A stretch of DNA of 62,741 nt, counting the filler, from Stramenopiles sp. TOSAG23-2 (lineage: Eukaryota): the NCBI GenBank assembly GCA_900128395.1. It is 8 parts of 8 records of this genome, joined end to end, with 100 filler letters (N's around TTAATTAATTAA, not from the genome) between each part and the next. Parts side by side here need not be neighbours in the genome. Positions count along the whole stretch, not along the records: positions 1 to 26,473 come from LT649435.1; 7 more parts are not named here. One strand, given 5' to 3'. Every line of letters starts with the position of its first letter. Position 1 is the stretch's first letter. The notes under the pieces are model-generated. The model saw only the letters and a list, made by a program, of their open reading frames with translations, was not told where the DNA came from and searched no databases. Position numbers and translations under genes: made by a program. Below, one piece after another: positions 217-62,118 of the stretch.

Positions 217-510
217 ATACAATGGAGCAACAAGAAAAATTTTGGGATGAAGTCCATTGTCAAGATTCTCAAAATACTAAAGAACCCGATGATTGGATAC
301 TTTCATCGGCCGAAAGTATGAAAATTATTGAAACAAAAATATTACAACCAATGATAAAGACTCATACAATGGAGCAACAAGAAAAATTTTGGGATGAAGT
401 CCATTGTCAAGATTCTCAAAATACTAAAGAACCCGATGATTGGATACTTTCATCGGCCGAAAGTATGAAAATTATTGAAACAAAAATATTACAACCAATG
501 ATAAAGACTC
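217..510. repeat. 147-bp exact tandem duplication (probable assembly artefact)
   Basis: 217-363 is identical to 364-510 and includes the ATG. Confidence 0.9.
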
Positions 511-4056: not shown

Positions 4057-5710
4057 ATGATAAAAAAAGAGAATAATGATGACGATGATTTAGCAGATGC
4101 TTTTAACTCGTTAACGGTTAGTAATACCAACAACAACAACAAAAATAACGACGACGTCGACAATAGAAAGGTGGATATAATAAATAATGCTACAGAGAAT
4201 TTAAAAAGTTTAGCATTGTCTAGTAGTGATGATGATAGTAGTGATTTTAAAGTTGGCAATGAAAATAGTCCAGTATGTCTTGTATATGATAAACGTATGA
4301 TGTTACACGTAGCACCTATGGACCATCCAGAACAACCAAAACGTATTGAACGTATTTGGTCAGCATTTGTAGAAGATGGTATTGTAAAGTCTTGTCATCG
4401 AATACCATCCAGGTTAGCAAATGATGAAGAATTATTGCGTTGCCATCCACAAAAACATATTGATGTCATTGCCGATGTATTTTATGGTGTAGACCCAGGT
4501 GAATTAGAATTGAAAAAGCAATTTTTAGAACAGAAAAAATTTCAGTTTAGACACGATGACGATACATATGATGGCAAAAATTCAAATTTAGCAGCAAGAC
4601 TTGCTGCTGGATCGATCATGGCAGTGACAGAAGCAATTTTATCTGAGGAGAAAAAAAATAGTAAAAAATCTGGCTTTGCAGTTGTAAGGCCTCCTGGACA
4701 TCATTGTGAAAGCGAAACACCACAAGGATTTTGTTTATTTAATAGCGTAGCAGTTGCCGCTCGACATGCACAAACTTTTGCACCAAAAAAATGTAAAAAA
4801 GTTTTAATTGTTGATTGGGATGTACATCATGGTAACGGGACCCAAAATATATTTTATGATGATCCATCCGTGTTTTATGTCAGTATTCATCGATCGGATG
4901 GTGGTAAATTTTATCCTGGTACGGGATTTGCAAAGGAGCTTGGTAATAAAAAGAAACGTTCATTAGGAACTAATTTGAATATTCCATGGCCATGTAGAGG
5001 ATTAGGTGATAAAGAATATGCAGTTGCATTTGAAAAATTGTTAATGCCATTATGTAAAAACTTTAAACCTGACTTGGTATTTATAAGTGCAGGTTTTGAT
5101 GCTGCATTAGGTGACCCATTAGGGGGGATGAAAGTCTCGCCTGGTGGATATGCTTACATGACAAATGAATTGATGCAATTAGCAAATGGCAATGTTATCA
5201 TTGCGTTAGAAGGTGGTTACAATTTAACGTCTATTTCCGTAAGTGCAGTTGCATGTGCACGTGCTTTACTTGGTAAAAGTGTTGAAGGTCAAGATGAAAT
5301 ATATAAATTTGCTAAAGAATCAACAAACGTTGAATATGCCGATGAAATAGATACAAGGGCTTTGCGTAGTCTTAATCAAATGTTACAGTAAAAGTGTTGA
5401 AGGTCAAGATGAAATATATAAATTTGCTAAAGAATCAACAAATGTTGAATATGCCGATGAAATAGATACAAGGGCTTTGCGTAGTCTTAATCAAATGTTA
5501 CAAATACAAAGTGATTTTTGGGAAGAAACTCATGATGATAAAGATGGAAGAAAAAATCCTTTCAATCAACCATTAAAAGGTAGTATGGGGCGATCTAGGA
5601 AACAAACCAAAAAAATGCAAGAATCAAAATCATTACAAGAAGCATTTTTAGAAAGAAGGAAAAAGGCTGCTGCTAGAGCAAAAAAGAAAAAGAAAAAAAA
5701 GAAAACATGA
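4057..5710 (+). CDS. Class II histone deacetylase (HDA1/HDAC6-like), frameshifted near the C-terminus by a 115-bp duplication
   Basis: HPEQPKRI, RPPGHH, GFCLFN, DWDVHHGNGTQ, SAGFDA and LEGGY motifs. Removing one copy of 5273-5387/5388-5502 joins the ORF to the basic tail ending at 5710. The start codon is uncertain. Confidence 0.9.
5273..5502. repeat. 115-bp tandem duplication with one mismatch
   Basis: 5273-5387 vs 5388-5502 (caacaaacgt vs caacaaatgt). Confidence 0.9.
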
Positions 5711-7496: not shown

Positions 7497-7714
7497 TACC
7501 ACCTGGTGTACCCGATACAATCGTGTATACTCGCTCGAGCTATACGTAAAAAAAAAAAAATAATACAAAATCTGATAGGGATATAAATTGATATAATGCT
7601 ATGTGTATATTATCTTCGAATACAATGATATACACATGCTATTTTTAAAAATCAATAGTGTATCGTTTTAATTAGACAGGATCGAGGAGCGGAGCGAGTA
7701 TACACCTGGTGGTA
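7497..7714. repeat. Inverted-repeat-bounded ~220-bp element
   Basis: GTGTATACTCGCTC (7523-7536) is the perfect reverse complement of 7692-7705; TACCACCTG (7497-7505) pairs with CTGGTGGTA (7706-7714) with one mismatch. Confidence 0.6.
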
Positions 7715-8026
7715 CTAGTGAGCAGAGCTAGCTCGCTAGCTCTACCTTAATCTGGTATTAAGGTATTTGAAATCTTAAATACAAATACTAAAACATAGAA
7801 TTGCAAAGTGCAAAGTGCAATTCATTCATATTCATGTAAAAAATAATATAATAAAAGATACATAGCACCACATACATAGTTATAATATCTAGAAACAGAA
7901 AGATACTGTACCAAGTAAAGCGGAAGAGATACACAAATACCGAAAAAAAAAAACCGAAAAGATAAGAGAAAAGAGATAGTAATATATATCGATATATATA
8001 TATATATTAATATCAGTATAAATACT

Positions 8027-9088
8027 ATGGCGTATTAACAAAAAAATATGGAGTCGATTTTGATGACAGTAGAGTAATTTTGGATGGAAAGAACATCTGT
8101 GATGAGGATTTACAAAATATAGGTGAAGCATTGAAAGCAAACAATACATTGACATACTTGGACCTACATAATAATAATATTACTGATGTACAAAGTATTG
8201 GTGAATTGTTAAAAGCAAACAATACATTAACGAGATTGTACCTAGATAATAATAATATTACTGATGTACAAAGTATTGGTGAAGGATTAAAAACAACTCA
8301 CGGATGAGGATGCATTAGCTATTGGTGAATTGTTAAAAACAAACAATACATTAACGAAATTGTACCTAGATAATAATAATATTACTGATGTACAAAGTAT
8401 TGGTGAAGGATTAAAAACAAATAACACATTAACATACTTGGACCTACGTAATAATAATATTACTGATGTACAAAGTATTGGTGAATTGTTAAAAGCAAAC
8501 AATACATTAAGGAGATTGTATCTAGATAATAATAATATTACTGATGTACAAAGTATTGGTGAAGGATTGAAAGCAAACAATACATTAGAGTACTTGTCCA
8601 TATGGAATAATAATATTACTGATGTACAAAGTATTGGTGAAGGATTAAAAACAAACAATACATTAAATATTACTGATGTACAAAGTATTGGTGAAGGATT
8701 AAAAACAAACAATACATTAAAGACATTGCACCTACATCATAATAATATTACTGATGATAGTGGAATACAAAGTATTATTGATGGATTAAAAACAAACAAT
8801 ACATTAACGGAATTGTCCCTACTTCATAATAATATTATTGATGTACAAAGTATTGGTGAAGGATTAAAAACAAACAATACATTAAAGGGATTGGACCTAT
8901 CTAAGAATAATATTACTGATGTACAAAGTATTATTGATGGATTAAAAACAAACAATACATTAAATCACTTGCGCCTACATCATAATCAACTTAGTTCTAA
9001 TATGAAATCACAATTAAGAGCTATACAACAATATAAACGGAGAGGATCAAACGGGTATCAACAAGTGAAAAGGATGTGGATAAGGTAA
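8027..9088 (+). CDS. Ribonuclease-inhibitor-like (28-aa) leucine-rich-repeat protein, frame-disrupted
   Basis: About 11 tandem 84-bp units encoding NNTLxxLxLxxNNITDVQSIGEGLKT. Frameshift near 8298, an internally deleted unit near 8665, and an ATG at 8027 that is out of frame with the upstream open frame. Confidence 0.85.
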
Positions 9089-9458
9089 AGGACATTATAA
9101 TTAATATATATATCTATATACTACCAACTACAATATCCCTATATAATATAATAACAGTACATAGTATCATAGTAATTATGTGTGTTATAATAGTAATTTT
9201 TTATTTAGGACAAAACTCATGCACTCATGCAGCTGCTCTAATCTAGGTCCTAGACTTTTCAAAGAAAAGTCTAGTTGGAGACATAGATTTAGTGCTGTGT
9301 GGCTTCTATTTTGAGTAAAAATCAGGGGGTTTTAAGGTTTTACAATGCTATTTTTAGCCTAAATACATGGAGTACTTCGTTTGATGATTTTTGCTGATGA
9401 AAAATGAAAATATTTGGATTTGCATTTAATCCAAGTCCATTTCCATCAAAATATATAT

Positions 9459-9824
9459 ATATTTACACTCCACAAATGGATTTACATATCATTTTCATTT
9501 ATAAAATTACATACTAAATATTTTATTATATTATAAATTATTTACCATTTTAGAAACTCAACATCATTTTAAAACACATTCCACAAATAATATAACTATT
9601 ACATACATATTAATAACCAAAATACAAACATTTTATCAAAAATATTTACACTCCACAAATGGATTTACATATCATTTTCATTTATAAAATTACATACTAA
9701 ATATTTTATTATATTATAAATTATTTACCATTTTAGAAACTCAACATCATTTTAAAACACATTCCACAAATAATATAACTATTACATACATATTAATAAC
9801 CAAAATACAAACATTTTATCAAAA
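9459..9824. repeat. 183-bp tandem duplication in intergenic DNA
   Basis: 9459-9641 is repeated at 9642-9824. Confidence 0.85.
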
Positions 9825-9975
9825 TATTGAAATATAAGGGGATCCAATCAAATATAATCCAATAATTCCAACATTTCATACGTGGTAAGAATACAATAAC
9901 TGAGACAATAATATCTATATGTACATCATAAAAAAATATATATACGAGTACGTACGACTTTGCGGTATTTTTTTT

Positions 9976-11103
9976 TTACAATTTACTTTGTTTTTTAATA
10001 TAATCCTCGCGAAATTTTTGATAGTCCTCTTTGTAATCATCATGCCATCTAGATAATGGTGGACGACTCATTGTTATATCGTTGGAGCCCCATTGAACAC
10101 CAGCATGCATCATATCGTTTGTCCGAAATTTTTGATAGTCCTCTTTGTAATCATCATGCCATCTAGATAATGGTGGACGACTCATTGTTATATCGTTGGA
10201 GCCCCATTGAACACCAGCATGCATCATATCGTTTGTCATGTCATTATCTGGGCACATAATATAGAAGGGAGCACCATTTTCAATTGCAGCAAACATTAAA
10301 TCCGTAGTTTGTTTTGGCGTCCATTGCCCTTCATGTTGTTTCCCTTCTTCATGAAATCGCACAGTTTTTTCATCAAATGAATCACCATTTAATCTTCGAT
10401 TTGTTTTATAGGAAAGCATTGAGTTTACCCAGCCTGGTATTAATAGAAAGGCAGTAATATTGCATCCTTCAGTGGAACGAAATTTATGCTCAAGTCCTTC
10501 TGTTAAAGTTATAACACCAGCTTTGGAAATATTATATGCTGTGTCTCCAGGTGGCTTGGTGATTCCTTGCTTGGAACCGGTGTTAACGACAACACATGGA
10601 TTATTTTGTTCAATCATAGACGGTACAAATGTATGAACAAAATTAATATATCCAAACAAATTTGTATTAATAACTTCATGCCATCTGTCAAAGTTTTCAA
10701 AGGGCCCACCACCACCTCCAATACCAGCATTATTGAAGAGAAGATTCACTTGACCAAAATGCTTATAGACTTGTTCTTTTACCTTTTCTACTGCACTTTT
10801 ATCTCGAACATCACAAATAACAGTCATTATATCTTCGTCATCTGCAATTTGTTGCAATTCAATTTTAGTTTTTTGTAACATTTTTTTATCAATATCACAA
10901 ATACAAAGTTTCATTTTACGTTTTGCACAATCAATTGCTGCAGCTTTTCCAATGCCACTTGAAGCACCTGTAATGACGGCAACATTCCCAGGCGATAGTG
11001 CTAAACGTGGTGTTCGCTTATCCGATGGTGGTGGTTTTGGTAGCTGATTCATCGTATTTATTTTGTGTGTCTTTTCTTTTTTGTTGACGACTTTTGTTGT
11101 CAT
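9976..11103 (-). CDS. Classical short-chain dehydrogenase/reductase, probably peroxisomal
   Basis: TGASSGIG, NNAG and YNISK (YxxxK) motifs; C-terminal SKL (PTS1). An in-frame 114-bp duplication (10010-10123/10124-10237) lies near the 3' end. Confidence 0.9.
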   Translation of the reverse strand: MTTKVVNKKEKTHKINTMNQLPKPPPSDKRTPRLALSPGNVAVITGASSGIGKAAAIDCAKRKMKLCICDIDKKMLQKTKIELQQIADDEDIMTVICDVRDKSAVEKVKEQVYKHFGQVNLLFNNAGIGGGGGPFENFDRWHEVINTNLFGYINFVHTFVPSMIEQNNPCVVVNTGSKQGITKPPGDTAYNISKAGVITLTEGLEHKFRSTEGCNITAFLLIPGWVNSMLSYKTNRRLNGDSFDEKTVRFHEEGKQHEGQWTPKQTTDLMFAAIENGAPFYIMCPDNDMTNDMMHAGVQWGSNDITMSRPPLSRWHDDYKEDYQKFRTNDMMHAGVQWGSNDITMSRPPLSRWHDDYKEDYQKFREDYIKKQSKL

Positions 11104-11703
11104 CGTCAATCTGTCTTTCTACAACTCTAACTTGGGAAATATATATATATATTTTCAAAAGCCTATTTTGGTATTATTATAACCCGGCTAATGCTATCTT
11201 ACACTAAAGATAGACATTAGGGTATGGAAAATACCAAAAAAAAGCGAGTACACAGCATGGTATAATGGCACATAAGATCATCCGACAGCTTTAAATCCTT
11301 TTTTTCGCTATTATTTATATACTTGCAAGTATACTACTATTAACCAAGTTAGACGGACAGACGGAAGACGGATGACGGATGACGGACATTATATAGGCGA
11401 TAGTGACTAAGTATACTAAATCTTATCACTTAAAAATGATTGATTTTTCAACTCATATATACATAGAAATGGAATCTAATCGAACAAATATAAATCAATT
11501 CAAAATGAATTGATGCAAAGAACATGATACAACCCATTTATAAAATCAGTAACAACAACAACAACAACAATAATAACAATTATCTTTTACATAACACATA
11601 ACAATTATCTTTTGGATCCGGTTGAAATATTTGTGAAATAAATTTTGTTGATTTTACTAAGTGTTTATATGCTTCTTTTTCCATTTCTTCCATATCAATA
11701 ACA

Positions 11704-14700
11704 ATGCAAGTGGTGGATAAAAATAATTTGAAAACAACGGTGGGCAAAAAATTACCACCAAAACCGCCGGCACGATGGAAATTTAGTTTTTTATCTCCGT
11801 GGACAATGTTTACATTCTCTTGGGTTTCTTCATTATTGACATATGGAAATGCAACAACATTAACTCAAGAGGATTTGCCTGAATGTTACGACGAGGATAC
11901 TCCACCATTTTTATTTGATAAATTTACAAAATCATGGAAACAACAGTTAGATAAAAAAGATTTAAAAAAAGCGTCATTTACTTTAGCTGCTTATAATGCA
12001 TTTTCATGGTGGTATTGTATTTTTCTTCCTTGTAAAACAGCATGTTTAATTGCAGCAACGCAATTTTTAGGAGCATTAATTGATTTTTATGCCTCAACAA
12101 ATAAAGATTTTCAACATGGTTTATGGATAAGCATTGGCTTATGTTTGTCATCATATGGTGTCGTGACATTTCATCATATATATTTTTTTTATGCATGGAG
12201 AAGAGGCTTGCAATTGAGAATAGGTTCATTAACAATGGTATACAAAAATTTACTATCATTACGTTTGGAAAGTTTCAATAAAATAAGCACAGGACACATT
12301 GTCAATTTGGCATCTGCCGATATTGAACGATTGCAAATGGCTGGTATTTTTGCTCCATTTATCATATGGGCACCAACAGAAGCTACGATTATCTTCATTT
12401 TCATGTTTATTGAAGTTGGCATTGGAAGTATTGTAGGATTTGCAATTTTATTACTAGGAATTCCAATCACATCTTATTTTGGAAAGATTTTCGCCGAAGT
12501 GAGGACATATGCAGCTGAAAAAACTGATGAACGGAATAAAATTGTAAGAGAGATCATTGATGGAATTCGTGTCGTGAAAGGCAATGCATTCGAAGAAGCA
12601 TTTTTTTCAAGAACTAAAGCTATACGCACAGATGAAGTTGAGAAAGTACATAAAAGGGCGAGAATGTTAGCACTAAATGAAGGAATTTTTACATCCATGC
12701 CATGTTTGGTTTTATTAGCAACTTTTTTTGTTGCATCTGCCCTTGGTGAACATGTCACATCACGAAAGATTTTTGTAATGTTAAGCTTAGCAAATGTTAT
12801 ACAATTAAATTTAACAAAATTTTTCACATTTAGTGTTCAAAATGCTGCGGAAGGTTTAATTACATTTAAAAGATTAAAAGAATATTTGATATTATCTGAA
12901 AACGAGTCTATTAAAAATTTGAAAAGAAATACTGACAATCCAATTGTATTGATGGATGGTAAAAAAAATAGTATACAAGATGAAAGTGTTGCTGTTAAGT
13001 TTGATAATGCTTCCTTTAGTTATGGAGATGGTGATAATCAGGAAGGAAAAATACGACAAATGATATTAAACAATTTAAATTTTGAAGTGAAATCAAAGGA
13101 ATTAATTGGAATTTGTGGAAAGGTTGGAAGCGGTAAATCTTCTTTATTATTATCAATTTTAGGTGAAATGGTTTTAGAAAAAGGCAATGTCAATGGATTC
13201 TGCGCGACAGGAACTGCAAAACCAATTGGATATGCTGCACAAGAGCCGTGGATGCGAAGTGCAACCATTAAAGAAAATATTTTATTTGGTGGAAAAATGG
13301 ATGTGCAGCGATATAATGAAGTAATTAAAGCTTGTGCACTGGAAGATGATTTAAATTCGTTTGAACATGGAGATCTTACAATAATCGGCGAGAAAGGTAT
13401 TAATTTAAGTGGTGGACAAAAGGCGCGGGTTGCATTGGCAAGGGCGTGTTATCAAAAAAGCGATATTTTCTTATTGGATGATCCATTGAGTGCAGTTGAT
13501 ACAATTGTTGCAGAGCATTTGTTCAATCAATGTGTTGTAAACTTTTTAAAATCAACTACAAGAATTTTAGTCACGCATCAAGTGCAATTTTTACCGCAAT
13601 GTGATCGTGTAATTATATTAGATGATGAAAATGGGACAGTTAAGCACATTGGTGCATATAGTGAATTAGTAAATGCAGGTGTAGTGTTTCCAACCACTGA
13701 AAAAGGGGATGATTCAGAAGATGATAAGGAAGGTGAAGAGACAAGTAAATCGAATGCAGAACCAGAAAGCAACTATGCTAATAATTCCAAATTGAAAGAA
13801 AAGAAAGATTCAATTTCAATAGATGATAAGCCAGAAAAGAAGGAAAATGTTCAAGGCAAACAACAAGGTAAATCAGTAGTACAAAAAGAAGATTCGGAAA
13901 CAGGTGTAGTCAGATTAGATACATATGTACAATTTTTTGCGGCTGGCTTATCAAAAGTTGGAATTATATGCCTCGTATTATTAATGTTGACTACACAATT
14001 TAATTTTGTAATTGTTCCATATTGGGTCACACTATGGGCAAAGCAAACCGTTGAAGAGCAACAAAATCATCAATATTGGTTTGGTATTTTAGCAATCATT
14101 GGAGGATGTTTAATTTTACAAGCATTTTTACGTTCGATATTATTTTTCAAGTCATGTATTGATAGCAGCTACAATTTATTCAACAGAATGTTACGTTCTG
14201 TTTTGTACAGTCCAATTGGATTTTTCGATAGCAATCCATCTGGTAGAATTTTGAATAGGTTTTCCAGTGATACAGGTCAAGTTGATGATTTATTGCCTCC
14301 GGCATTTTATGATTTTGTAGCATTGTCAATTAGTGCCATTTCATACATTATTATAACTTTGATTGTTGTACCCTTTACTGGTATAGTTTTAATTCCTGTA
14401 ATAATAGTTTTCATACGTTTGCGAAAAAAGTTTTTGCAAAGCTCCAGAGAAGTGAAACGGTTGGAGGCATTGAGTCGCAGCCCTGTGTTTACACACATCT
14501 CAGAGAGTCTTTCAGGTTTAGTCACCGTGAGGGCGTTTAAGAAGTCAAAAGATTTTCAAACTGATTTCTTTAACAAACAATATACAAATGTGAAAGGATA
14601 TTTTGCATTTATTGCAGTAAATCGTTGGTTTGGTGCAAGGCTAGACATGATCAATATGTTTTACTTGACCATATTTATATTCATGGCCATATTGTTTCAA

Positions 14701-15744
14701 CGCTTTCACAATGAATTTGGAATGAATTCATTGGATGATGGCTTAGTTGGTATGTCTTTGACATATATTTTATCTTTATGCGATGTGTTTCAATGGTGTG
14801 TGCGTCAAAGTGCTGAAGTTGAAAATCTTATGGTATCGACTGAACGTATTTTAGCATACATCAAATTGCCAAGTGAACCACCACACAAAGTACCAAAAGA
14901 TGCTGTAGTGAAAAAGCAAAATTGGCCGCAAAAAGGAGAGTTGGAATTGAAAAATTTAAGCATACGATACCGAAAAGATTTGCCATACACATTAAATAAT
15001 ATATCTTGTAAAATACCATCTGGTGCATCAGTTGCAGTAGTTGGAAGAACTGCTGCCGGAAAAACCACATTGGTGCAAGCTCTATTGCGGTTGATAGAGC
15101 CAAATGGCCCAGTAAAAAATAATTTATTCGTCGATGGGATTGATTGTGGTGAATTGGGATTGAAATTATTGCGTGAAAACATTATGTTGATAAATCAATT
15201 GCCATGGTTGTATTCAGGTACACTACGAGAAAATTTAGATCCATTTAATGAGTACACGGATGAAAGGATGTGGAAATGTTTAGAAATGGCTAGTGTTTCA
15301 AAGCAATTTCGTAATTTAAATGGTTTAGACACTGTGTTGAGTGAATCTGGGGGCAATCTTTCTGTGGGAGAGAAACAATTAGTATGCCTTGCACGTAGCA
15401 TTTTAGGAGAAAATAAAATTTTTATTTTTGATGAGCCGACTGCCAATATTGATATTCACACAGATAGAATTATACAAAATGCCATTAGGGAAATGGATGT
15501 TTTGAAAGAAGCAACAATCATCACAATTGCACACCGACTAGCGACCATTATAGATTATGATTTAGTAATGGTGATGGAAAATGGAGAATTGATTCAATTT
15601 GGTGAACCACATTTAATTCTAACTGAAAAGACTGATATTGTGTCTAATAAATTTTTATCAATGGTGAATGCAACTGGGCCAGATTCGTCGGAATTTTTGA
15701 AACGAAAAGCGAAAGAGGCATATGAAGGGAGAAGGAAGAAATAA
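11704..15744 (+). CDS. ABC transporter subfamily C (MRP4-like, TMD-NBD-TMD-NBD)
   Basis: NBD1 GKVGSGKS, LSGGQKAR, LLDDPLSAVD; TMD2 FFDSNPSGRILNRFS; NBD2 GRTAAGKT, NLSVGEKQL, DEPTA, TIAHRL. Confidence 0.95.
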   Translation: MQVVDKNNLKTTVGKKLPPKPPARWKFSFLSPWTMFTFSWVSSLLTYGNATTLTQEDLPECYDEDTPPFLFDKFTKSWKQQLDKKDLKKASFTLAAYNAFSWWYCIFLPCKTACLIAATQFLGALIDFYASTNKDFQHGLWISIGLCLSSYGVVTFHHIYFFYAWRRGLQLRIGSLTMVYKNLLSLRLESFNKISTGHIVNLASADIERLQMAGIFAPFIIWAPTEATIIFIFMFIEVGIGSIVGFAILLLGIPITSYFGKIFAEVRTYAAEKTDERNKIVREIIDGIRVVKGNAFEEAFFSRTKAIRTDEVEKVHKRARMLALNEGIFTSMPCLVLLATFFVASALGEHVTSRKIFVMLSLANVIQLNLTKFFTFSVQNAAEGLITFKRLKEYLILSENESIKNLKRNTDNPIVLMDGKKNSIQDESVAVKFDNASFSYGDGDNQEGKIRQMILNNLNFEVKSKELIGICGKVGSGKSSLLLSILGEMVLEKGNVNGFCATGTAKPIGYAAQEPWMRSATIKENILFGGKMDVQRYNEVIKACALEDDLNSFEHGDLTIIGEKGINLSGGQKARVALARACYQKSDIFLLDDPLSAVDTIVAEHLFNQCVVNFLKSTTRILVTHQVQFLPQCDRVIILDDENGTVKHIGAYSELVNAGVVFPTTEKGDDSEDDKEGEETSKSNAEPESNYANNSKLKEKKDSISIDDKPEKKENVQGKQQGKSVVQKEDSETGVVRLDTYVQFFAAGLSKVGIICLVLLMLTTQFNFVIVPYWVTLWAKQTVEEQQNHQYWFGILAIIGGCLILQAFLRSILFFKSCIDSSYNLFNRMLRSVLYSPIGFFDSNPSGRILNRFSSDTGQVDDLLPPAFYDFVALSISAISYIIITLIVVPFTGIVLIPVIIVFIRLRKKFLQSSREVKRLEALSRSPVFTHISESLSGLVTVRAFKKSKDFQTDFFNKQYTNVKGYFAFIAVNRWFGARLDMINMFYLTIFIFMAILFQRFHNEFGMNSLDDGLVGMSLTYILSLCDVFQWCVRQSAEVENLMVSTERILAYIKLPSEPPHKVPKDAVVKKQNWPQKGELELKNLSIRYRKDLPYTLNNISCKIPSGASVAVVGRTAAGKTTLVQALLRLIEPNGPVKNNLFVDGIDCGELGLKLLRENIMLINQLPWLYSGTLRENLDPFNEYTDERMWKCLEMASVSKQFRNLNGLDTVLSESGGNLSVGEKQLVCLARSILGENKIFIFDEPTANIDIHTDRIIQNAIREMDVLKEATIITIAHRLATIIDYDLVMVMENGELIQFGEPHLILTEKTDIVSNKFLSMVNATGPDSSEFLKRKAKEAYEGRRKK

Positions 15745-23465: not shown

Positions 23466-26400
23466 TCACAGTCTACCTTTTACTGTAATTTTGTTGTCTT
23501 TAAGTAGTGCGACATGTTCAATTCTGGCTTCGTTTGTTACTTTCAGAGAAGACATGATGTCATTTTGAAAACCCTTGCCTATCATATCATCCATATTATA
23601 CGCCCCTGCATTAAAAGTGACATGCTTCCCTCTAAACTTATCATGTTGATACATAGTAACTTGGCATCCTGCAGGTACTTTCAAGGATGACATGATGTCG
23701 TTTTTAAAACCCTTGCCTATCATATCCTGCAATTCGTATTCACCCTTTGCAAATTCAACCTTTGTACCATCAAAAGAACTGTGTTGAAAGACAGAAACTT
23801 TTCCATTACATTTTGCTGATCCAACTTCTGCATTTACATCAGTTCCTATGCTGTCTTGCAAAATGGTTTTAGGATCAAAATTAAGACAGCATTTAATATT
23901 TTCACTCCCATCACATTTATTTGTAGATATGCTTTTACCATCGCACATTTCGAACCGTAAATCAATACAATCTCCATTTATACCTTTACAAGGTACAGCA
24001 CCATCAAGCGGCTCTTGACATTTTTGCCATGCATGCAGCAAGTTTTGGTTATTTTTGGCAGCACGGTCATTATTTAACTTAAATGATTTAGCAATTTTTG
24101 CTTGATAATATTTCATATCTTTGCCAAAACATTCAAACATTGTTTTTGCATTTGGGCAACTGGGTTCACATATCAGACTTGAGGGGTTGTTTTTTAGTGG
24201 AATAGTTCCAACTCCGAGGAGGTTTTTTTCTTCTGTTGTTAGATGGTAATATTCAAAGAATTCAAAAACATCCATAATATCTTTATTTTTGAATTTTTTA
24301 CCCATGATACCAACGATAGTCTCTTTGGCAAGTTTTGCATTTTCTGCCACTTCGAGTGTATCCTTTATTTTTCTGACAACCTTTATAGAAGTTTTCAGTG
24401 CATGTCTACTCTTCAAACTTAGACTGTTAATTTTTTTAATTAATCCGTTTGTGTCTCTTGTCAACACATCAATTTTTTGTTTCCATGCAGTTTGCGACAG
24501 CGGCGTTTGACCATGTTTAAGCTTGTGCTTTTTGTAATTGGTGTATGTTTTATGCTTAGCTTTTTGTCGATTCTTCATTATTGTGCTATATTTCTTGGTC
24601 CACTTATCTCTTGTCAAAGCAGGTTTCCCTTCCTTTGCCTTTCTTGCACAATATTTGCTGTATTTTTTTGTTAGTATTGAGACATGATGCTGCTTTGTGT
24701 TTCTAGGTTTAATGCTGTGTTTCTCCATTAATGACTCTTGATCATCCATTTGTTTCTTCAATTTTCCAGCTACTTTTTTACGTATCTCTTTCGCTCTTTT
24801 TAACACTTCTTTTGATGTAAAAAAAGATTCTACAATTAACCCAACTTGAGTACCCCATTGGTATGATACAACTTTTCTACAACTTTTACAATCGGCGTAA
24901 TCACTAAAAAACTTGCACCCATCTGTCTCACATGTACCACTATCGATTTTTTCTTGTGCTATATTTTTCAATTGTTGAGTTACTTTAAATGTTGGTACAT
25001 TTTGTATTAAATTTACAACACCCATGACAATTTTTACCACTGCTTTCACCCAACCCGCTCCAGGAACAAGCAGTAAGCCGGCATTAACTGCCACAGCTTT
25101 TAGGTATATAGGTAGCATTTCCATCAAATCAGTTACAAACATACAAAGACCAGCCACAGCATCTGAATGTATTTTTAATTTTAAAATGAATCTAAATGTT
25201 AGTGTATATTTTTGTAAATTAGAAATCAGCAAATTATTTACTCACCAACATTTGCAGCTGTCATCTTCTTCCAAACTTCTTTATTATCTTTTGATGATCT
25301 CGAAATAAATTCTTCCTCGTTTGCCCCCAAATTTAACCAATTACTGACGTATCGTTGAATTAAATCCCTAGCCCATGGTCCAACTGCGGTCCCAAGAATT
25401 CCACCACATGATTCTGGCTTTTCTTCATGAACTTCCATCCAATAATCATATTCCATCTGAGCAAATATTTCCGAATTTTTTTTGGTTGCAGGCAAATCAT
25501 ACATTTCTATTGCTTTTTGGGAGTTAAAAAGTGTACCAATAGTAGCTTGGCAATCACAATGCAATAACGCCATTATAGACCCAATTGAGTTATGTAATAC
25601 GTAACCCATTGTGCCTTTCGCATACCCTTCGGTAGCCTTATAAGCTGCTAGACGATTTGTTGGGTTGTTAACTTCGCACAGCTTTTGCGCTCCTAAAATT
25701 TTCTTTAACAATTCCTCTCCAAGAACTTTGATATTTTCACCAAAGCTCTTAACGATGTTCGAAATTCCCATTCCAAAAGCTTTAATTTTGGCTTTCAGCC
25801 AATCCCATCCCTTTTTCAGTATTTCAAAACCTTTCTCCAAGATTCTTTTACCTGCTAATAACGCCTTCTCGCCAAATTCAATTACATCTTCGGCAACGTC
25901 CTTTACAATTTTTACTCCATCGTTAACAACATCTACTACAATATCTTTTACTTCTTCAGCTTTTTCAGCAACCCATTCCACTCCATCTTCTACTTTCTTT
26001 ACAGCCACCTTTACAACTGATTCCGCTGCGTCGTATACCTTTGATACACCTGTTTCTAGAGTATCCCAAGCATCTGCCCCAACGTCGCGGACCGCGGAAA
26101 ACGCAGTTGAAACCTTCGAACCCACGTCTGAAAAGAAGTCACCGACACTACCCCACTTGACCATTTGACGTGACTTTGAAATTTGCACTAATGCCATGGC
26201 ACCAGCTTCCTCAATATTTTCTACAGCCTCGTCTTTATTTTCCATTAAATACTCCATATCTGTAGTCATCTTATTTTTGGCTCTTCTTAGCGCCTCTGAA
26301 TTCTCAAATGCCGTATTAGCCATTGTCGAACATTGTTTCGATGGATCATCATTCCAAGCACGCCATGCTCTTCTATCAAAAACACCGTCAGCTAAACCGA

Positions 26401-26473
26401 ATGCAAATGATCCAACACTATCCGAGATAGTACCTTTGTCGCCTGACATAACCTTGCCCAAATGCTTTTTTAA
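23466..26473 (-). CDS. Large 5'-truncated two-exon protein: amphipathic helical repeats, Lys-rich segment, Cys-rich module and C-terminal beta/gamma-crystallin domain
   Basis: ORFs 25238-26461 and 23466-25232 join through an intron at 25163-25245. Crystallin motifs VFQHSSFDG..NDIMSSLKV and MYQHDKFRG..NDIMSSLKV. Confidence 0.75.
25163..25245 (-). other. 83-bp spliceosomal intron (phase 1)
   Basis: Donor G|GTGAGT, branch ACTAAC, acceptor TTCAG|AT; splicing restores the frame (ANV-D-AVAGLC). Confidence 0.85.
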
Positions 26474-30391: not shown

Positions 30392-33300
30392 TCACCGTGT
30401 GCCATATTTCTTTTTCACTAACTTCATTTTACGTCTTAAAATTTCACTTTCCATTAATTCTGGTGCTTCTAGCTGTATCTTGTACAATTTGTTCTTGTAA
30501 ATGTTTTTATTTCTTTTTCACTAACTTCATTTTACGTCTTAAAATTTCACTTTCCATTAATTCTGGTGCTTCTAGCTTCTTCTTTTTTTTCTTCAAACTA
30601 CCCGAACCATCGAGTTTAGGCAATTTGCCACTATTTTTCTTCCTACTTGATGATGTCGCTGGATTTAAAATATTAAAATTACTTTTTGCTTTGAGTTGAA
30701 TCGCACGTTTAGCTAATAATCTATGTTCATTATCATCCAGCACTGCAACAGAAAGTGCTTTAGCTTGATACGGTTTTAACATTGTTTTTATTTCAGCATT
30801 ATTTTTTTTTACTAAATCAATTGCTAGTTTGGCTTTATGATTTGGAGTTGCTAGTAGGTGATAAAAATCCGACATATCTGTATATTTCAAAAATTGTCTA
30901 ACTGTACGTCTATATCCAGCACGAACAGCAATATGCAAAGCGGTATCACCATGTGCGTCTTTGATACACATAGTTGCCCCATGATCAAGTAACATTGCGA
31001 TCATATCTGGTCTATCAACAGATGCAGCTATATGTAACAATGCTGTTTTATTTATTTTGTTGTCTATTAGATCTGGATTTGCACGCATTTGTAATAAATA
31101 TTGTAATATATTGATTTTTCCAAATAAAACCGCATTTCCTGGCATCGTTTCCCCCGTTTCAGGGCATTTATCATTGATTGTAAATTGCTTTTTTTCTTGA
31201 TAAAGTTGCCGTTCCATTTCACCTTGTAACAATTCGCGGAATATAGTTGGTGTGATGTCTAATCGTATTGCTTTCCATGGTGATGAAATATCTCGTGCTT
31301 TTTTTATTATAGCATTGTTACGTTTAATAGTTGCTTCTTTTAGTTTTTCTTTCAACTTATTTTTTTCCTCTACTGACATTTTAATTTTATTTTCTTGTTC
31401 AATTACTTTTTTTTCCTTTCCAATAACCCATTTGTCTTGACACATAAGTACAAATGCTTCATGTTTTGCTTTTTTTTCAGCTCGTATTTTTGTTAACAAT
31501 ATGTACGATCTTTGTTTTGCCTCTTCTTTTTTTTCCTTTCCAATAACCCATTTGTCTTGACACATAAGTACAAATGCTTCATGTTTTGCTTTTTTTTCAG
31601 CTCGTATTTTTGTTAACAATATGTACGATCTTTGTTTTGCCTCTTCTTGCCTCATTCTTAATAATTCCACTTGGCTAATACGCTTATCCATCAACTCCCC
31701 AGAAACTTGCATAAATGAATTCGTTACATATACAGCTTGATATACTTTTTTAATAACTTGTCTCAATGTCTTTGCAAATACTGCATAGTTTCCTTGAAAT
31801 TTTCTACGTTTTCTTAATTTTGTCAATGCATATTTAGTTTCACCCATTGATTGGAAGCTTAGGACTGCGTGTTTTGCTTTATCAACTTCTGTACGCACAC
31901 CTAATAATGATTCATCCGTATCATCTAATCCAGGGGTTTGTAATTTATATATGTCTAAATTTATTAAATCACGAGGACTGCGTGTTTTGCTTTATCAACT
32001 TCTGTACGCACACCTAATAATGATTCATCCGTATCATCTAATCCAGGGGTTTGTAATTTATATATGTCTAAATTTATTAAATCACGTAAACGATTACGAA
32101 TAATGCGAAACATGTCCATTTCCTCGTTAATAACAATTGGAATTGCATTTTCTACTTGATCCGTAAACATTGTTATTACATTTTTTACTTCATCTACTTC
32201 CTCATCATTGACGTTATTTCCTGTATTTTTTTCTAAATTTCTATATTTAACTTTGATATCTTCGAGTAAAAATTTCAAATCAAATATCATAGAACGAGCT
32301 CTTACGCTTTTTCTGGTGTATCGATGGCGATACATTTCAGAAAAGTCACGTACAGCGCTTTGGAATGCATTGTACATTTCATTTTCTTCTAAGTTTTCCT
32401 CTGGGTTGAAAATTAATGGCATTGTAATTGGGAATTTTCTTACAAGAAATTTGTCGTTATGCCTATTGCAACGAGATTGAAATGCACGAAATGCTGCTTG
32501 TATTTTTATAGCAGCAGAAAATTGTTTATTGCTTCCTCCTGGGGTATAATTATCAGGCATTTCATATTTTACTTCGCCAACAATCGGTTTATAATAATAC
32601 ACTTTCTTCTTGAATGGATCATATGCTTTAATCCAACGATTCATATCCGTGCGCATTTCCATCGGGCGCTTCCATATTACAGCATTAGTTTCAGTATTGT
32701 GAAAGTATTTTCGACGTACTTGTGGATCAAATGCTTCGACCCAGACTTGTTTCGGTGCTATTTGCAATTTTTTCCCTCGTTTCCTTCGTATTTTTCGTTT
32801 TGCAATAAATATACGTACCATACGCTGAATCTTTTGAGCACTTTGACTACGTACATATGGTGCAGGTGGTGCCCAAAGTCTTTCCTCAACTCTATAGTCT
32901 AAACCAAAATCAAATGGTTGTTTCCACTTAATTTTACTACTGAAATTGTTGTAATAAAAAAAATTATGTGTATCTACATCGTATAATCTTTCCCATTGCG
33001 ACCAGTCTGATAAATATGTTGTTTTTTTCTTTTCAATAATTTGATCTTCATTTGCACCAGTTGGTTGTTTGGTCTTTTTTTTTGCATTTTCTCTCATTTG
33101 ATTAACAATCTCTGGGATTTCAGATGCATCTTGTCCATCCTCATTCATTACACCAAGACACTGCATTGTTACCGTTCCTGAGATACTTTTATCTTTCCCT
33201 ATTTTATCGTCCTCTGGCCTTAAATTATATATTTTCGGTGTTCGAGTTAATAAAAATTCTAATAATTCTAATCCTTGTAATTTCAATTGCCCGAGAAAAT

Positions 33301-44833: not shown

Positions 44834-47713
44834 CTACACTCTCTCCCTCCAAAACTCTTTCCCCCTACACAGTACCGAACCATTTATCTTTATCTGCATG
44901 GATATAATAATTTCTTGCTCCCCATCATCCTTTTTTCTACTGTAACTTTTGCCTGCTGAACTTGGTACAACGCATTGAGCATGTATAATTTTCATTGATT
45001 CTGGAATTTTAACTTGCATATTTATTGTTTCATTTTCTTTTCCAGATAAAATCAATATTAAATCAGTGGAATTACTTATCAATTTCATTATACGAGAATT
45101 AGATACTGGTATAAATTTATTTGCTTCTCCTAATAAAATCCAATTACCATTTAAAATTGGGGCGATTAAAACATATGTTGCTTCCGTTCCTAATGGTTCT
45201 TTCCAATTTGCTGATAATATAGATAGCGAATCTTTATCGTCATTAAATGGTAGAAGAGACATTTCATTAGTTTGCTGAAATGGCCGATCACCAGACCAAA
45301 AATATGCCACATAGTTACCATGATGATTCTTCAGTTCATATTTGTTTGTACTATTGGTGGATGATGTCGTTCGTAGGATACCAACATCGTTTGGAGATAA
45401 TTTAAATTCAGTATTATTAATTATGCTTACATACCGCCATACGTAATCATTGTTTATTACAGTCATTGCAACGGATGTTTCGCCAACTGATGTGTCTCCA
45501 AGCCAAACACGATCTATATACATAGCCGGAATAGATGGTTTTAATAATTTACCATTTTCATTACAACTCATCATAAGAAGTACACGATCGGCATCACCTA
45601 TTGGCCCACCCGGAGCAAAACCACCTCCACTTAATGCAGATACCAATGCTTGTGTAAATGGTAAAGACTCGTATCCACCATAATCCTCCGCAAATGAATT
45701 TTTGACACGTGAGGATGAGTTGGAATAAAATGTATCTTTAAATGGCCACAATCCTAGAGACCAAAGGAGTGTACTTTCACCACCAAAGCCTTTCCAATTA
45801 TCAAATGGAAATCCATGTGAATTGTGACGTAAATGGCTATCCGTAGAGCCACGTCCATGCGTCATGGCTATATGATTGACAGAATGCATCAATACATTTG
45901 GAAAAGACATGCATAACATAATACTCACATTATTTTTATAAGCAGATGTACCAAGGCCATCTAGATATTGCTCGGCTACATTTACATCGGTCACCATATC
46001 AAGTATACTATTTTTTGCAATTGAGCGATTACGTTCACCTGGTTTACATTCTGTTCCACCACAATTTGGAACGCTTGCATCACCTCCTAATACTACATCT
46101 AGGACATGATCCATTTTCAAAACAGACATACTCCATTCATTATTGGATTGAAATATATGGTCAAAAGCAGGATTTGTTTCACTATTATTATTATTATTAT
46201 TTAGACCAATGAGCACCAAATTCTATTCCCAATTTTTTTTGAAAGGTTTTTAATGTCTCTGGAAATATTAAGCCAACTTGTTTTGGAATATCTTCAAAAT
46301 ACAATGAATATGGTTCATTGTCCCCATGATTATTATATGCATGCCACCATGAATCAATTAAAAACCAATTGTATGGTATTTTTTTTTCTATTGCATCTTG
46401 GTGAATGAGATACAAATTATCTTGATATGTATGACAATCATTGTCTTTTCCAGATGATGGTGGACAACCCCATCCAATAGAATTATTAACGCAGTCACAT
46501 GGATTGTAATGATAAATTCCGGTAGTGGAATATCCTAACTTTGAAATCCAAACATTTGAATTAGGCAATGTCCGCTGATTTTTACCATAACTTTTTTGAA
46601 TCAATATATCTCCCCATTGTGAGAAACTCTGAGCAATTCTACCTATATGTTGATTGGTAATTTCTATATTTTCCAATATTTGTTTTGTTTTTTTTAACGA
46701 TGTTGTACTTAGAACAAATTCAATTGTATAATTGCGTGGAATATTTTCAATTAATCCACCTACCCCAAATCCTAATAGATTAACTTGATTATTATCTTTA
46801 ATAATATTAGACATTCCAACCATGTGATGCGTTAACGTGGACATGATGATTACATTATCAATTTTGTTATTATTACTACTATTCTCATCTTCTTTGCCGA
46901 AAAGAGCTACAGGCCCACCAAGATACCCTCCTTTATATGCATCTGGCCATTTGCCATATAGCGTTGATTTTGCTGCATTTTGCCCTAAAAATGTTGCAAC
47001 ATGTACATGATTATTATTAACATTAGTAGTAGTAGTAGTACTTGTCTCTATCACACGAAAAGATGGAAAAATTGTTGATGGAATATCAATATCTCTTTGG
47101 TCATTAATATAAGTATCATGTGTAAGTCCGTATGGAAAATATTGCTCGAATGTTATAAACACATTTGGTAATAGTTTCTGGTTGTTGTAACATTGAAATG
47201 ATGTTATCCATACGTTATTTTTGTTTGTACCCCATGTCCAGTAAAGGGATATTTTTTTATGATAATCAAATATTTCAATATTATTATTATTTTTATTTAT
47301 TATTGTTGTAACATTTTGCAAGTTTAACTTGTATTTTCCATTATTTGTGTTATCATACCATATGTTGTTGTGTAATATGCGATATGAACTACTGTACAAC
47401 ATATTCAAATTTGATGTAGGGTTCAAATATATTGTATAATTACCAAGTTGATCATCTATAATAATTTTTTGTGCTGATGGTGTTATTGAATCATTTATTT
47501 TATTATTATTGAAGTTACAAATAATATCTTTTGAATGTACATTACATATTGTTATTATAAATGTAATTATTAGAAACGTCCATGTATATTGTTGTTTCTT
47601 TCATTTATTTTATTATTATTGAAGTTACAAATAATATCTTTTGAATGTACATTACATATTGTTATTATAAATGTAATTATTAGAAACGTCCATGTATATT
47701 GTTGTTTCTGCAT
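44834..47713 (-). CDS. Secreted glycoside-hydrolase-like protein (clan GH-D-like TIM barrel, inferred), disrupted twice
   Basis: Signal peptide MQKQQYTWTFLIITFIITICNVHS from ATG 47713; WFLIDSWW, IMLCMSFP, LWSLGLWPFKDTFYS, LSGGGFAPG, GKLLKPS and WILLGEANKFIPVS. A 110-bp duplication (47491-47709) and a frameshift at the (AAT)n tract near 46200 break the frame. Confidence 0.6.
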
Positions 47714-50895: not shown

Positions 50896-52895
50896 ATGGC
50901 ATTATCAATACAATGCAGTATTAGAATAATCAGTATTGCGATATACGTACTTACCATTCATACAGTTGCTACAGCGAAAGCTACTAAAAGTGTTTTTTAT
51001 AATGTTAGTCATATTATTTCAAATTTGTCATATAACGAGCAATCATTAATATATGCAATTCAAGGAATTGTGAATAAAAACAAAGAACCAGAATTGTTTC
51101 TAAATACTGGTCATATGGATTTAGATTTTCCAAAATCAGATTTATTGTGGAAAGAATATTTTGAGAAAACACGAAACATAGAATTTGATACTACCATCGA
51201 AACAAATAATTTATGCAGTTTAATTAATCATTTTCAAGACAAATTCAAAAATGGTATTGTTATTTATAATGAAAGTGATAATTTTACACTTTACCCATCG
51301 TTGACACTTGCAGGTTTAAATAGTGTATTGCCAATATCTGATGTAATATATGAAAAGTACTATGATTCATGTTTACGAAATTTTCCAATCCATTTAAATT
51401 TAACCAAAATGGAATTTTCAAATAAATTTGAAATGTATCGTTGGGCAATTGATACGTTATTACCTAATTGCAGCAAAACAATTTTATTTAATGCAGACAA
51501 TTATCCGAATGCAGTTGCACAAGCAAAATTTACAACAATTATGTCAGTTGATTATGCAATTTCACAAAGAGCATTTATAATGAATTTATGTCCATTATGG
51601 AAATGTCAACCAAAATTATGTGGAACAACTAGAAAGGCAACGCCAAAAGATACGGAACTTTTTATTGAAATTATAAAAGCATCTGATAAATTAGTTTCTG
51701 TGTTTGGTTGGAGTGATCCTGAATACAGTTATACGAACATTACATCCCATGCTGGAGGTGCTGTTTTTTGTTCATTTAGCACACCAAATTTATCATATTG
51801 GGATGCTATTTCTAAATATTTCAATAACATTACATCCCATGCTGGAGGTGCTGTTTTTTGTTCATTTAGCACACCAAATTTATCATATTGGGATGCTATT
51901 TCTAAATATTTCAATGTCAAACCATTACCATTACCAATAAAAGACAATGATCTTCAACATATGTTAGATGCATCTAAAACATATTTAATATTTGAAACAA
52001 ATGAAGGCGACACGCCAAGGATATTGTCTTCACAATTTACCAGTGCTTGGGTTTCACCAAATCGTGGCAGCGTTCCAATTGCATGGGCAATCGATCCATA
52101 CCTTGGTATATTATTTCCAGAGTTGTACAATTATTATGCAAATAATACTACAAGAAATGATACATTTATAAATGGTGTCGTAGGTGCTGGTTATGCATAT
52201 ATTAGTAGTTTAGGAGAGAATGCACAGGTTTATGAAAAACGGAGTGGGAAAATTATGCAAATGCTTGGTCCAAATGTTGTAGATGTAAGTAAATTTCGAT
52301 TCCTATACTATTAAAGACCTATATAGTATACAGCCCTGGATATATCCTCCCTCTCTAACAATACATCCCTCTCTTTCATTTAAATACGTTTACAGGTCGG
52401 TGTCCCAATGAATAAATGGCCCGCAACACCTATTGATTTAATAGAAGAATATGTTGTTCATGCTAGAAATACAGGAAATAACGATGATAAAACAACGATA
52501 ACGTCACCAGAGGCATTTGTGAATGCATGTGGCACTACATATGGACAAGATATTAATATTTGTTTAAATGATGGTACCCCTGTTATCAATTCAGTGTGTG
52601 TCGGTCCAAAAAATAATGATACAACCGATGGACATTATTTATATTATTATAGAGATCATTTAAATAAAACAGATCCTGTACATGATTTTGTCGAGAAAGT
52701 GAAATGGGCATCAAATCATTATAAATCAAAAGATCAAGCCTTGTTTTTATTGGCATATGGAGGTTTAGGATTATATGGAGGACATAATGATATATTCATA
52801 TTTATTCAAAATGTTATGAGGGAGCTTGGGGAGGATTATATTGTCATTGGTGCTCAAGAGATGGTGAGGTTAGCGAAGGAGCAATGTAAAAAAAA
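50896..52895 (+). CDS. Secreted GxGYxYP-family putative glycoside hydrolase; one intron; runs into the contig end
   Basis: Signal peptide, AIQGIVNK, NEGDTP, SPNRGSVPIAWAIDP and GVVGAGYAY. In-frame 90-bp duplication 51736-51825/51826-51915. Confidence 0.8.
52285..52395 (+). other. 111-bp spliceosomal intron (phase 0)
   Basis: GAT|GTAAGT donor, CTCTAAC branch, TTTACAG|GTC acceptor; joins in frame to the ORF at 52408. Confidence 0.85.
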
Positions 52896-61667: not shown

Positions 61668-62118
61668 TAAATAGCAGGTAAATAGCATTATAACATGGGA
61701 ATAGCATTATATACGAAAAACTACATATAAGGTGTTTTTATGCGAAGATTCGATATTTTGAGTATATACACGAATGGTCTGGTAACCTTAATCCAATAGA
61801 GTTAGAGTCAATAGTGTGTATTGTTATTTTAAAATAGCATGTAAATAGCACTATAATATAGGAATAGCATAATATACGAAAAACTACATATAAGGTGTTT
61901 TTATGCGAAGATTCGATATTTTGAGTATATACACGAATGGTCTGGTAACCTTAATCCAATAGAGTTAGAGTCAATAGTGTGTATTGTTATTTTAAAATAG
62001 CATGTAAATAGCACTATAATATAGGAATAGCATAATATACGAAAAACTACATATAAGGTGTTTTTATGCGAAGATTCGATATTTTGAGTATATACACGAA
62101 TGGTCAGGTAACCTTAAT
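61668..62118. repeat. 163-bp tandem repeat, ~2.75 copies
   Basis: GGAATAGCA..TACGAAAAACTAC recurs at 61698, 61861 and 62024; the outer ends are slightly diverged. Confidence 0.9.

What the first reader, a model, noticed from the sequence alone, without database searches (positions are those of the whole stretch)
8130..9000. LRR array with near-invariant scaffold and hypervariable concave-face codons
Seen: the 84-bp units are nearly identical in DNA outside the xxLxLxx strand, which reads TYLDLHN, TRLYLDN, TKLYLDN, TYLDLRN, RRLYLDN, EYLSIWN, KTLHLHH, TELSLLH, KGLDLSK and NHLRLHH. One unit has lost this strand (~8665) and a frame break lies at ~8298. Known: these positions form the ligand-binding face of LRRs and are diversified in plant NLRs, lamprey VLRs and brown-algal LRR-ROCO genes. 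Inference: a modular recognition or immune-like receptor family diversified by repeat shuffling, with homogenised scaffolds acting as recombination substrates.
Basis: partly seen in the sequence, partly recalled or inferred. Interest (0 to 1): 0.72.

Follow-up and report, generated by a model that had tools for sequence, protein, structure and literature searches.

The report
Shuffled LRR sensor cassette, marine protist
This is a broken, probably mis-assembled copy of a real gene family in a marine single-celled eukaryote, in which one leucine-rich-repeat module with fast-changing surface residues is attached to many immune-type proteins; virus-like DNA carries the same module, which hints at a host-virus arms race.

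Summary
The hypervariable strand is real, but units are 78 bp (26 aa), not 84. This copy is a mosaic: three junctions occur nowhere else in the fetched loci, and two perfect duplications in neighbouring DNA are assembly artefacts. The family is real: 319 scaffold copies and about 100 C-caps in the genome. At the variable codons the first two bases are saturated while silent third bases stay fixed. That points to positive selection, not DGR-type mutagenesis. The cassette has sharp DNA borders and is fused to TIR, NB-ARC, MLKL-like, CHAT, kinase, helicase, XK and U-box proteins. One locus sharing both flanks between two assemblies has a wholly different array. Three virus-like contigs carry stand-alone copies with scaffolds 92-95% identical to the host's; no viral hallmark gene was seen. 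It works like fungal conserved-repeat NLR sensors and brown-algal LRR-ROCO but belongs to neither. Function is untested.

The parts
7771..8031 (+). 5' flank and start codon (8027-8029) shared with type-B paralogs
   Evidence: 85-90% identical matches in C617, C5425, C3031, C1576, C804; same start context as L082
8031..8033 (+). Junction 1: start codon joined out of frame to the N-cap; the N-terminal domain found in paralogs is missing
   Evidence: junction unique to this copy; paralog sequence on both sides
8033..8139 (+). Type-B N-cap of the LRR cassette (VLTKKYGV...IGEALKA)
   Evidence: translation; paralogs
8140..8296 (+). LRR units 1-2 (TYLDLHN, TRLYLDN), 78-bp period
8296..8341 (+). Junction 2 (frame break) followed by the helix of a type-A N-cap (LTDEDALAIGELLKT)
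   Evidence: junction unique; paralogs carry the type-A N-cap before this point
8342..8653 (+). Four standard 26-aa units (TKLYLDN, TYLDLRN, RRLYLDN, EYLSIWN)
   Evidence: Pfam LRR_4, LRR_6, LRR_1, LRR_8
8654..8707 (+). Strand-less 54-bp unit, an exact tandem duplication (junction 3), probably an assembly artefact
   Evidence: similar duplications at 5273 and 10010 are skipped by independent contigs
8708..8950 (+). 29-aa unit (KTLHLHH) and two standard units (TELSLLH, KGLDLSK)
8951..9088 (+). Last unit (NHLRLHH), C-cap with a final variable strand, stop codon
   Evidence: 101 matches in the genome; terminal strand in the model of P0022
9117..9134 (+). 18-nt non-coding motif marking the 3' border of the cassette
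   Evidence: 101 matches in the genome, control 0; 61 of 89 copies in hand follow a C-cap; shared sequence fades within about 10-15 nt

Best explanation
The window holds a defective or mis-assembled member of a cytoplasmic innate-immune sensor family of a marine protist. The sensor is a portable cassette: N-cap, usually 3-6 RI-like 26-aa LRRs, C-cap, stop and a short 3' motif. Step 1 (shown): five surface codons per repeat change amino acid far faster than silent sites, i.e. positive selection. Step 2 (shown as a pattern, mechanism inferred): the 63-nt scaffold is uniform family-wide, as gene conversion and unequal crossover would make it; the same process swaps, adds and drops units, so alleles of one gene carry different arrays. 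Step 3 (borders shown, mechanism inferred): the cassette has been grafted by ectopic recombination onto the 3' ends of unrelated signalling and cell-death proteins. Step 4 (inferred): the LRR binds foreign proteins, most likely from giant viruses or other intracellular parasites, and releases or oligomerises the attached effector or sends the target to ubiquitylation. Virus-like genomes carry effector-less copies, taken from the host.
For: Family size: 212 matches (lower bound), 319 scaffold 24-mers with control 0, 101 C-caps. Entropy 3.1-3.6 bits at x2-x4 against 0.5 or less at most scaffold positions, 200 unique units. pN 0.51 at variable codons vs scaffold pS 0.078; silent third bases fixed (x2 68 of 69, x3 50 of 52, x4 73 of 73), while at x2 the third base changes in 52 of 130 codons outside fourfold boxes; repeated in 165 metagenome cores (50 of 53, 41 of 45, 56 of 57). 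Units within a contig are no more alike than between contigs (scaffold 0.942 vs 0.944). N-cap DNA is 87% identical between genes with unrelated N-termini and 47% upstream of the border (155 pairs). N-terminal domains: TIR+kinase, TIR+helicase, CHAT+helicase, NB-ARC, kinase, SAP/U-box/Ank, Ank, XK-related, MLKL_N, SidE_PDE, PF00656 on P0127. L213 and L085 share 2 kb upstream at 98.5-99.3% and the 3' flank, yet no strand is the same and the unit number differs. Type-B clusters: 4 of 112 and 0 of 12 strands identical. Model of P0022, pLDDT 85.6, puts x2 and x3 on the beta strands; fold matches are Lmod/Tmod, NOD2 and NLRP1 LRRs.
Against: No ligand, expression or phenotype was tested. 14 of 30 N-termini scanned had no Pfam match and one matched only LRR; the commonest type has no recognised effector. 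CHAT passed Pfam's cut-off in 1 of 3 proteins and the stonustoxin-like match in none. All array orders come from short-read assemblies, and this copy is probably a mosaic. Some arrays are frozen: L188 vs L060 identical; cluster of P0132, 57 of 63 strands identical. Nei-Gojobori pN/pS within the variable codons is only 2.4, and 0.94 at x1, because multi-hit codons inflate pS. No codon-model test was run. L203 and L061 share only the upstream flank. The test for unlinked neighbouring units has low power (18 arrays).
Confidence: 0.65

Rival explanations
1. Same genetics, other job: the variable LRRs recognise prey, endosymbionts or kin (self/non-self, mating), or are substrate adaptors for ubiquitin ligases, not antiviral sensors.
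For: The largest subgroup has a short N-terminal domain whose Atlas neighbours include F-box-named clusters (scores under 0.9, leads only); one member has a U-box. Tetrahymena LRRs were proposed to sense bacterial food (PMC6564038 section 27).
Against: TIR, NB-ARC, MLKL_N and caspase-like partners are death and immune effectors by established knowledge; virus-like contigs carry the cassette.
Confidence: 0.2
2. A dedicated mutator (DGR-like adenine mutagenesis, or a deaminase as in lamprey VLR assembly) writes the variable codons.
For: x3, x4 and x5 look like NNC/NNT and x1 like NNG, the pattern an AAC/AAT template gives (DGR rule recalled). Silent divergence is very low for so many replacements.
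Against: Silent adenines are untouched, also between the variable codons: L9 191 of 198, V17 196 of 196, T3 189 of 195, x2 68 of 69. Third bases change where they change the residue (TGG, TAC, TTC, CAC). All four bases occur at first positions, unlike a deaminase spectrum. I did not search the genome for a reverse transcriptase or template.
Confidence: 0.05
3. The cassette spreads as a selfish mobile unit (retrocopy or Helitron-like cargo) and the fusions are mostly accidental.
For: Sharp borders on both sides; the 3' motif also stands alone in 23 of 89 places; an earlier unchecked note reports a Helitron2-like copy with an LRR gene.
Against: No series of 5'-truncated copies (3 partial of 89) and no common poly-A tail. 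Fusions are long open frames with immune-type domains. Selfish spread does not explain selection on surface codons.
Confidence: 0.06
4. The diversity is an artefact of co-assembling many cells or of chimeric short-read paths.
For: The window's assembly has false duplications and this copy has three unique junctions; 16 of 231 units are exact duplicates within a contig.
Against: Each variable segment is 21 nt, shorter than a read. The codon pattern repeats in other assemblies. Assemblers reproduce frozen arrays. In L213/L085 the last variable strand differs within about 30 nt of a shared unique flank.
Confidence: 0.04

Closest known systems
Fungal NLR repeats of high internal conservation (Podospora nwd/het-d/het-e WD40; also ANK and TPR; PMC4986451, passages read)
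   Same: Near-identical repeats in concerted evolution within and between genes, a few positively selected surface positions per repeat, repeat-number polymorphism, varied N-terminal effectors.
   Different: Repeat is a 26-aa LRR. A central NOD is mostly absent (NB-ARC in 2 of 30 N-termini scanned). The host is unicellular. The cassette carries its own caps and 3' motif.
[quoted passage not shown]
   Same: Candidate pathogen receptors with positively selected concave-face LRR residues and shuffled repeats; the window's host groups weakly with stramenopiles.
   Different: There each 24-aa LRR is a 72-nt exon at the N-terminus of a Roc-COR GTPase. Here units are 78 nt, intron-less, C-terminal, and no Roc-COR was found in the N-termini scanned.
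Tetrahymena 90-bp-exon LRR genes (PMC6564038, abstract and section 27 read)
   Same: Unicellular grazer with a large, young, recombining LRR family proposed to act in recognition.
   Different: Exon arrays with phase-2 introns, 30-aa units, mostly purifying selection by the paper's Ka/Ks; no portable capped cassette described in what I read.
Jawless-fish VLRs (as described in PMC3341825 passages; otherwise recalled)
   Same: Capped LRR solenoid with a hypervariable concave face built from interchangeable modules.
   Different: No evidence of somatic assembly from donor cassettes; intracellular, RI-like fold, fused to effectors.
Poxvirus viroceptors / giant-virus virologs (PMC10583209, passages read)
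   Same: Host-derived receptor domains kept by a large DNA virus without their signalling part, as the stand-alone copies on L185, L193, L204 would be.
   Different: Viral identity of these contigs and any decoy role are inferred only.

Membership tests
NLR / STAND receptors | Central NACHT or NB-ARC domain | tested here: not met
   NB-ARC in 2 of 30 N-termini scanned (of 49 with 70 aa or more); none in the window's copy or type-B paralogs. Those two members do qualify.
NLR / STAND receptors | C-terminal repeat sensor plus N-terminal effector | tested here: met
Fungal HiC-repeat NLRs | Repeats over 85% internally identical, homogenised within and between genes | tested here: met
   scaffold DNA 94% within and between contigs; measured on DNA without the variable codons, not by the paper's protein criterion
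Fungal HiC-repeat NLRs | Positive selection at a few surface positions per repeat | tested here: met
   counting tests only; positions on or next to strands
Fungal HiC-repeat NLRs | WD40, TPR or ANK repeat type in a fungus | tested here: not met
   LRR; host is a protist with ciliary BBS5
Brown-algal LRR-ROCO | Roc-COR GTPase domain | tested here: not met
   no Roc/COR Pfam hit
Brown-algal LRR-ROCO | One 72-nt exon per LRR | tested here: not met
   78-nt units in continuous open frames
VLR | Somatic assembly from donor cassettes | not testable with these tools
   needs clonal cells and long reads
Diversity-generating retroelement target | Adenine-specific mutagenesis including silent sites | tested here: not met
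   silent adenines fixed
Diversity-generating retroelement target | Reverse transcriptase and invariant template repeat | not tested
   no search made
RI-like LRR class | LxxLxLxxN strand followed by a helix, RI/NOD2/tropomodulin fold | tested here: met
   unit is 26 aa, shorter than the usual 28-29 (recalled)
Nucleocytoviricota (for L185, L193, L204) | Hallmark genes such as major capsid protein or family-B polymerase | tested here: inconclusive

The most novel reading that the evidence does not exclude
An uncultured marine flagellate runs a population-level, VLR-like antiviral repertoire without a NOD core: one capped LRR cassette, re-randomised on its binding face and grafted onto a dozen death and signalling effectors. 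Its giant viruses have captured the cassette, and a host ankyrin module, as effector-less decoys or as re-aimed binders. Host alleles and viral copies could then be followed together in ocean metagenomes as a direct record of the arms race.
Probability: 0.3. Interest if true: 0.87.

Novelty: new variant of a known kind. Interest (0 to 1): 0.68.

Why it matters
How single-celled eukaryotes recognise fast-changing viruses is largely open. This family gives a concrete, testable candidate: a standard sensor module with five variable residues per repeat, wired to known effector types, with allelic turnover visible in public metagenomes and apparent viral copies. It also shows the fungal conserved-repeat strategy realised with LRRs and mostly without a NOD. 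The window's own copy is uninformative as a gene.

Tried and rejected
84-bp period: rejected. DGR-type mutagenesis: rejected. Retroposition by 3'-anchored truncated copies: not supported, 3 partial of 89. One large mobile element spanning about 7500-9900: not supported, since the upstream and downstream repeats match different contigs and only about 250 nt upstream and 60-95 nt downstream travel with LRR genes. L171 vs L186 as proof of in-place change at variable codons: not used; the 25 differences are spread over scaffold too, cluster, and look like errors. '35 of 35 arrays distinct' is biased by 90% clustering, so I checked within clusters. Copies in IMG/VR: none; five cassette scans gave no cassette copy (one search gave one conventional LRR at 38%), and two neighbour-gene scans were empty. 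Atlas search for an L204 orphan: no usable hit. MutH-like gene in PDB: nothing. Contig depth over the array (10,700-15,000 vs 25 in X1) is no copy number and is not relied on. No listed contig bridged the three junctions, but 2875 pieces were not shown. Lineage: BBS5 tree groups the host with two named stramenopiles at support 0.84 while four named oomycetes fall outside: weak. The search term MAST-4 was a guess. The complex predictor was not used: no candidate partner.

Full report
Observation. Over the 8 full units, 35 of 120 nt in the five variable codons differ from the majority, against 18 of 504 in the scaffold. The window is eukaryotic, AT-rich and intron-poor, with ciliary genes, in a 33-Mb assembly of 9146 contigs. 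Runs holding it are marine. A BBS5 tree places it weakly with stramenopiles.

This copy is unreliable. It has three lesions: the start codon is joined out of frame to the N-cap (8032/8033), a type-B array is joined to a type-A N-cap helix (8296/8297), and one unit is an exact 54-bp duplication. None of the junctions occurs in another fetched locus. The window has about ten perfect or near-perfect 90-183-bp tandem duplications, several inside ordinary genes. The one at 5273 is skipped by contigs of 4 of 4 runs and the one at 10010 by the run covering it, so the assembly makes such errors. Full type-B relatives in other assemblies have 2-5 detected strands (35 proteins, search limited to 389 aa), though arrays of 7-9 exist. 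A real pseudogene is not excluded.

The family is real. The genome gives 212 protein matches (62 not listed), 319 scaffold 24-mers and 101 C-caps. From 130 loci I extracted 400 cores on 98 contigs: 232 standard, 61 long, 72 terminal, 35 set aside. Among 200 unique standard units, x2, x3 and x4 of LxxLxLxxN carry 16-18 residues each (3.1-3.6 bits); x1 and x5 about 2 bits. A model of an intact relative (P0022, pLDDT 85.6) has x2 and x3 on the strands and matches leiomodin/tropomodulin, NOD2 and NLRP1 LRRs. That these positions form the binding face is established LRR knowledge.

How the diversity arises. In 199 units, pN at the variable codons is 0.51 and scaffold pS is 0.078. Where the third base is silent it is fixed (x2 68 of 69, x3 50 of 52, x4 73 of 73; x1 is mixed); outside fourfold boxes it often changes, giving Tyr, Trp, Phe, His. 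Silent adenines between and around the variable codons are fixed, which rejects DGR-type mutagenesis. 165 cores from 47 metagenome loci repeat this, and only 11 of their 163 segments occur among the genome's 284. The plain Nei-Gojobori ratio inside the variable codons is 2.4 and no codon model was run. Scaffolds are as alike between contigs as within, as family-wide gene conversion predicts, though mosaic assembly would add to this.

Shuffling between alleles. L213 and L085 share 2 kb upstream (98.5-99.3%) and the 3' flank, but have three and four strands, none alike. Within 90% clusters of type-B proteins, 4 of 112 and 0 of 12 positional strands are identical; P0392 and P0395 differ by three internal units. 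Against a general rule: L188 and L060 have identical arrays, and one host-like cluster is frozen (57 of 63). These controls also show that assemblers can reproduce arrays.

A portable cassette. Type-A N-cap DNA is 87% identical between genes with unrelated N-termini (155 pairs) and 85% between related ones (35 pairs), falling to 47% upstream of a short A-rich tract. An 18-nt motif lies 23-79 nt behind the cap in nearly all capped copies; it has 101 genome matches, and of 89 in hand 61 follow a cap, 3 a fragment, 23 none, 2 could not be judged. Of 30 N-termini scanned (of 49), 15 had a non-LRR Pfam match: TIR+kinase, TIR+helicase, CHAT+helicase, NB-ARC, kinase, SAP/U-box/Ank, Ank, XK-related and a weak stonustoxin-like hit. 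A laxer rescan added MLKL_N above cut-off; further loci gave SidE_PDE and PF00656 (caspase family, name recalled). The window's copy is of the type with a short, unassigned N-terminal domain.

Virus-like carriers. Nine of the proteins fetched by then end in a distinct tail whose DNA has no match in the genome; they are short, mostly stand-alone LRRs. Three metagenome loci carry such genes: L185 beside a Met/Ile/Leu tRNA cluster; L204 beside a RING gene and a P450 whose one IMG/VR relative lies on a GVMAG record (45%); L193 among a Dam methyltransferase, a weak MutH-like gene, macro, GIY-YIG and ankyrin genes (its LRR gene runs off the contig before the tail). L193's flank has no DNA match in the genome. 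These three alone have GATC observed/expected of 0.05-0.25; the other 41 metagenome loci scored give 0.44-1.18 and the window 0.87. Their standard units are 92-95% identical to the host scaffold (L185, L204). One such cluster is near-clonal (98 of 112 strands; one member on 36 contigs). An L193 ankyrin gene has 171 relatives in the host genome, up to 78% identical. No viral hallmark gene was in the DNA held, and IMG/VR had no copy, so 'giant virus' is an inference, about 70% likely in my judgement. Direction of transfer and decoy role are untested.

Comparison and novelty. It works like fungal conserved-repeat NLR sensors (PMC4986451, passages) and brown-algal LRR-ROCO (PMC3341825, passages) but lacks the defining NOD in most members, Roc-COR and exon units. 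Tetrahymena's LRR arrays are exon-based and mostly under purifying selection (PMC6564038, abstract and section 27). Six searches of the held library, read as listings only, showed no paper on this family; subscription papers and supplements were not seen. Earlier notes of this scan describe the same family on other DNA of this genome (8 of 136 shown); look-ups for cassette grafting and for P0001 returned nothing.

Verdict. Observation partly confirmed. The locus is a damaged or mis-assembled copy; the family is a new variant of a known kind, most likely an innate-immune sensor repertoire (0.65). Interest 0.68, carried by the allelic turnover, the grafted cassette and the virus-like copies.

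Noticed in passing
window 217-510, 5273-5502, 9459-9828, 10010-10237, 31406-31648, 31861-32086, 47491-47709, 51736-51915, 61669-62118: Perfect or near-perfect 90-183-bp tandem duplications; two shown to be absent from independent contigs. Other findings in this genome that rest on such duplications should be doubted.
   Followed up: partly
window 7523-7705: MITE-like repeat with 14-nt perfect inverted arms; many copies in the genome.
   Followed up: partly
window 9239-9888: A second dispersed non-coding repeat, not tied to LRR genes.
   Followed up: partly
L193:7291-8022 and genome-wide: A second large host repeat family (ankyrin, at least 171 matches) shared with the virus-like contig; hypervariability not examined.
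   Followed up: partly
L167:200-2248: SidE-type phosphodiesterase domain followed by a region that by eye resembles an ADP-ribosyltransferase (not tested), fused to the LRR cassette.
   Followed up: partly
L166:3264-3767: Type-A N-cap joined to conventional 28-aa RI-like repeats: possible ancestral or reverted form.
   Followed up: no
P0121: 1078-aa protein with a biotin-lipoyl domain, 26-aa cassette units and conventional LRRs; origin unknown.
   Followed up: no
L131-L150, L157-L162: Solo copies of the 18-nt 3' motif in intergenic DNA, some sharing a short downstream extension; role unexplained.
   Followed up: partly
window 23466-26449: Two adjacent ORFs on the minus strand, one with a beta/gamma-crystallin domain, one without Pfam match.
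   Followed up: no
window 26474 onward: Only 1-26473 maps to contig C811; 15 short N runs follow.
   Followed up: no
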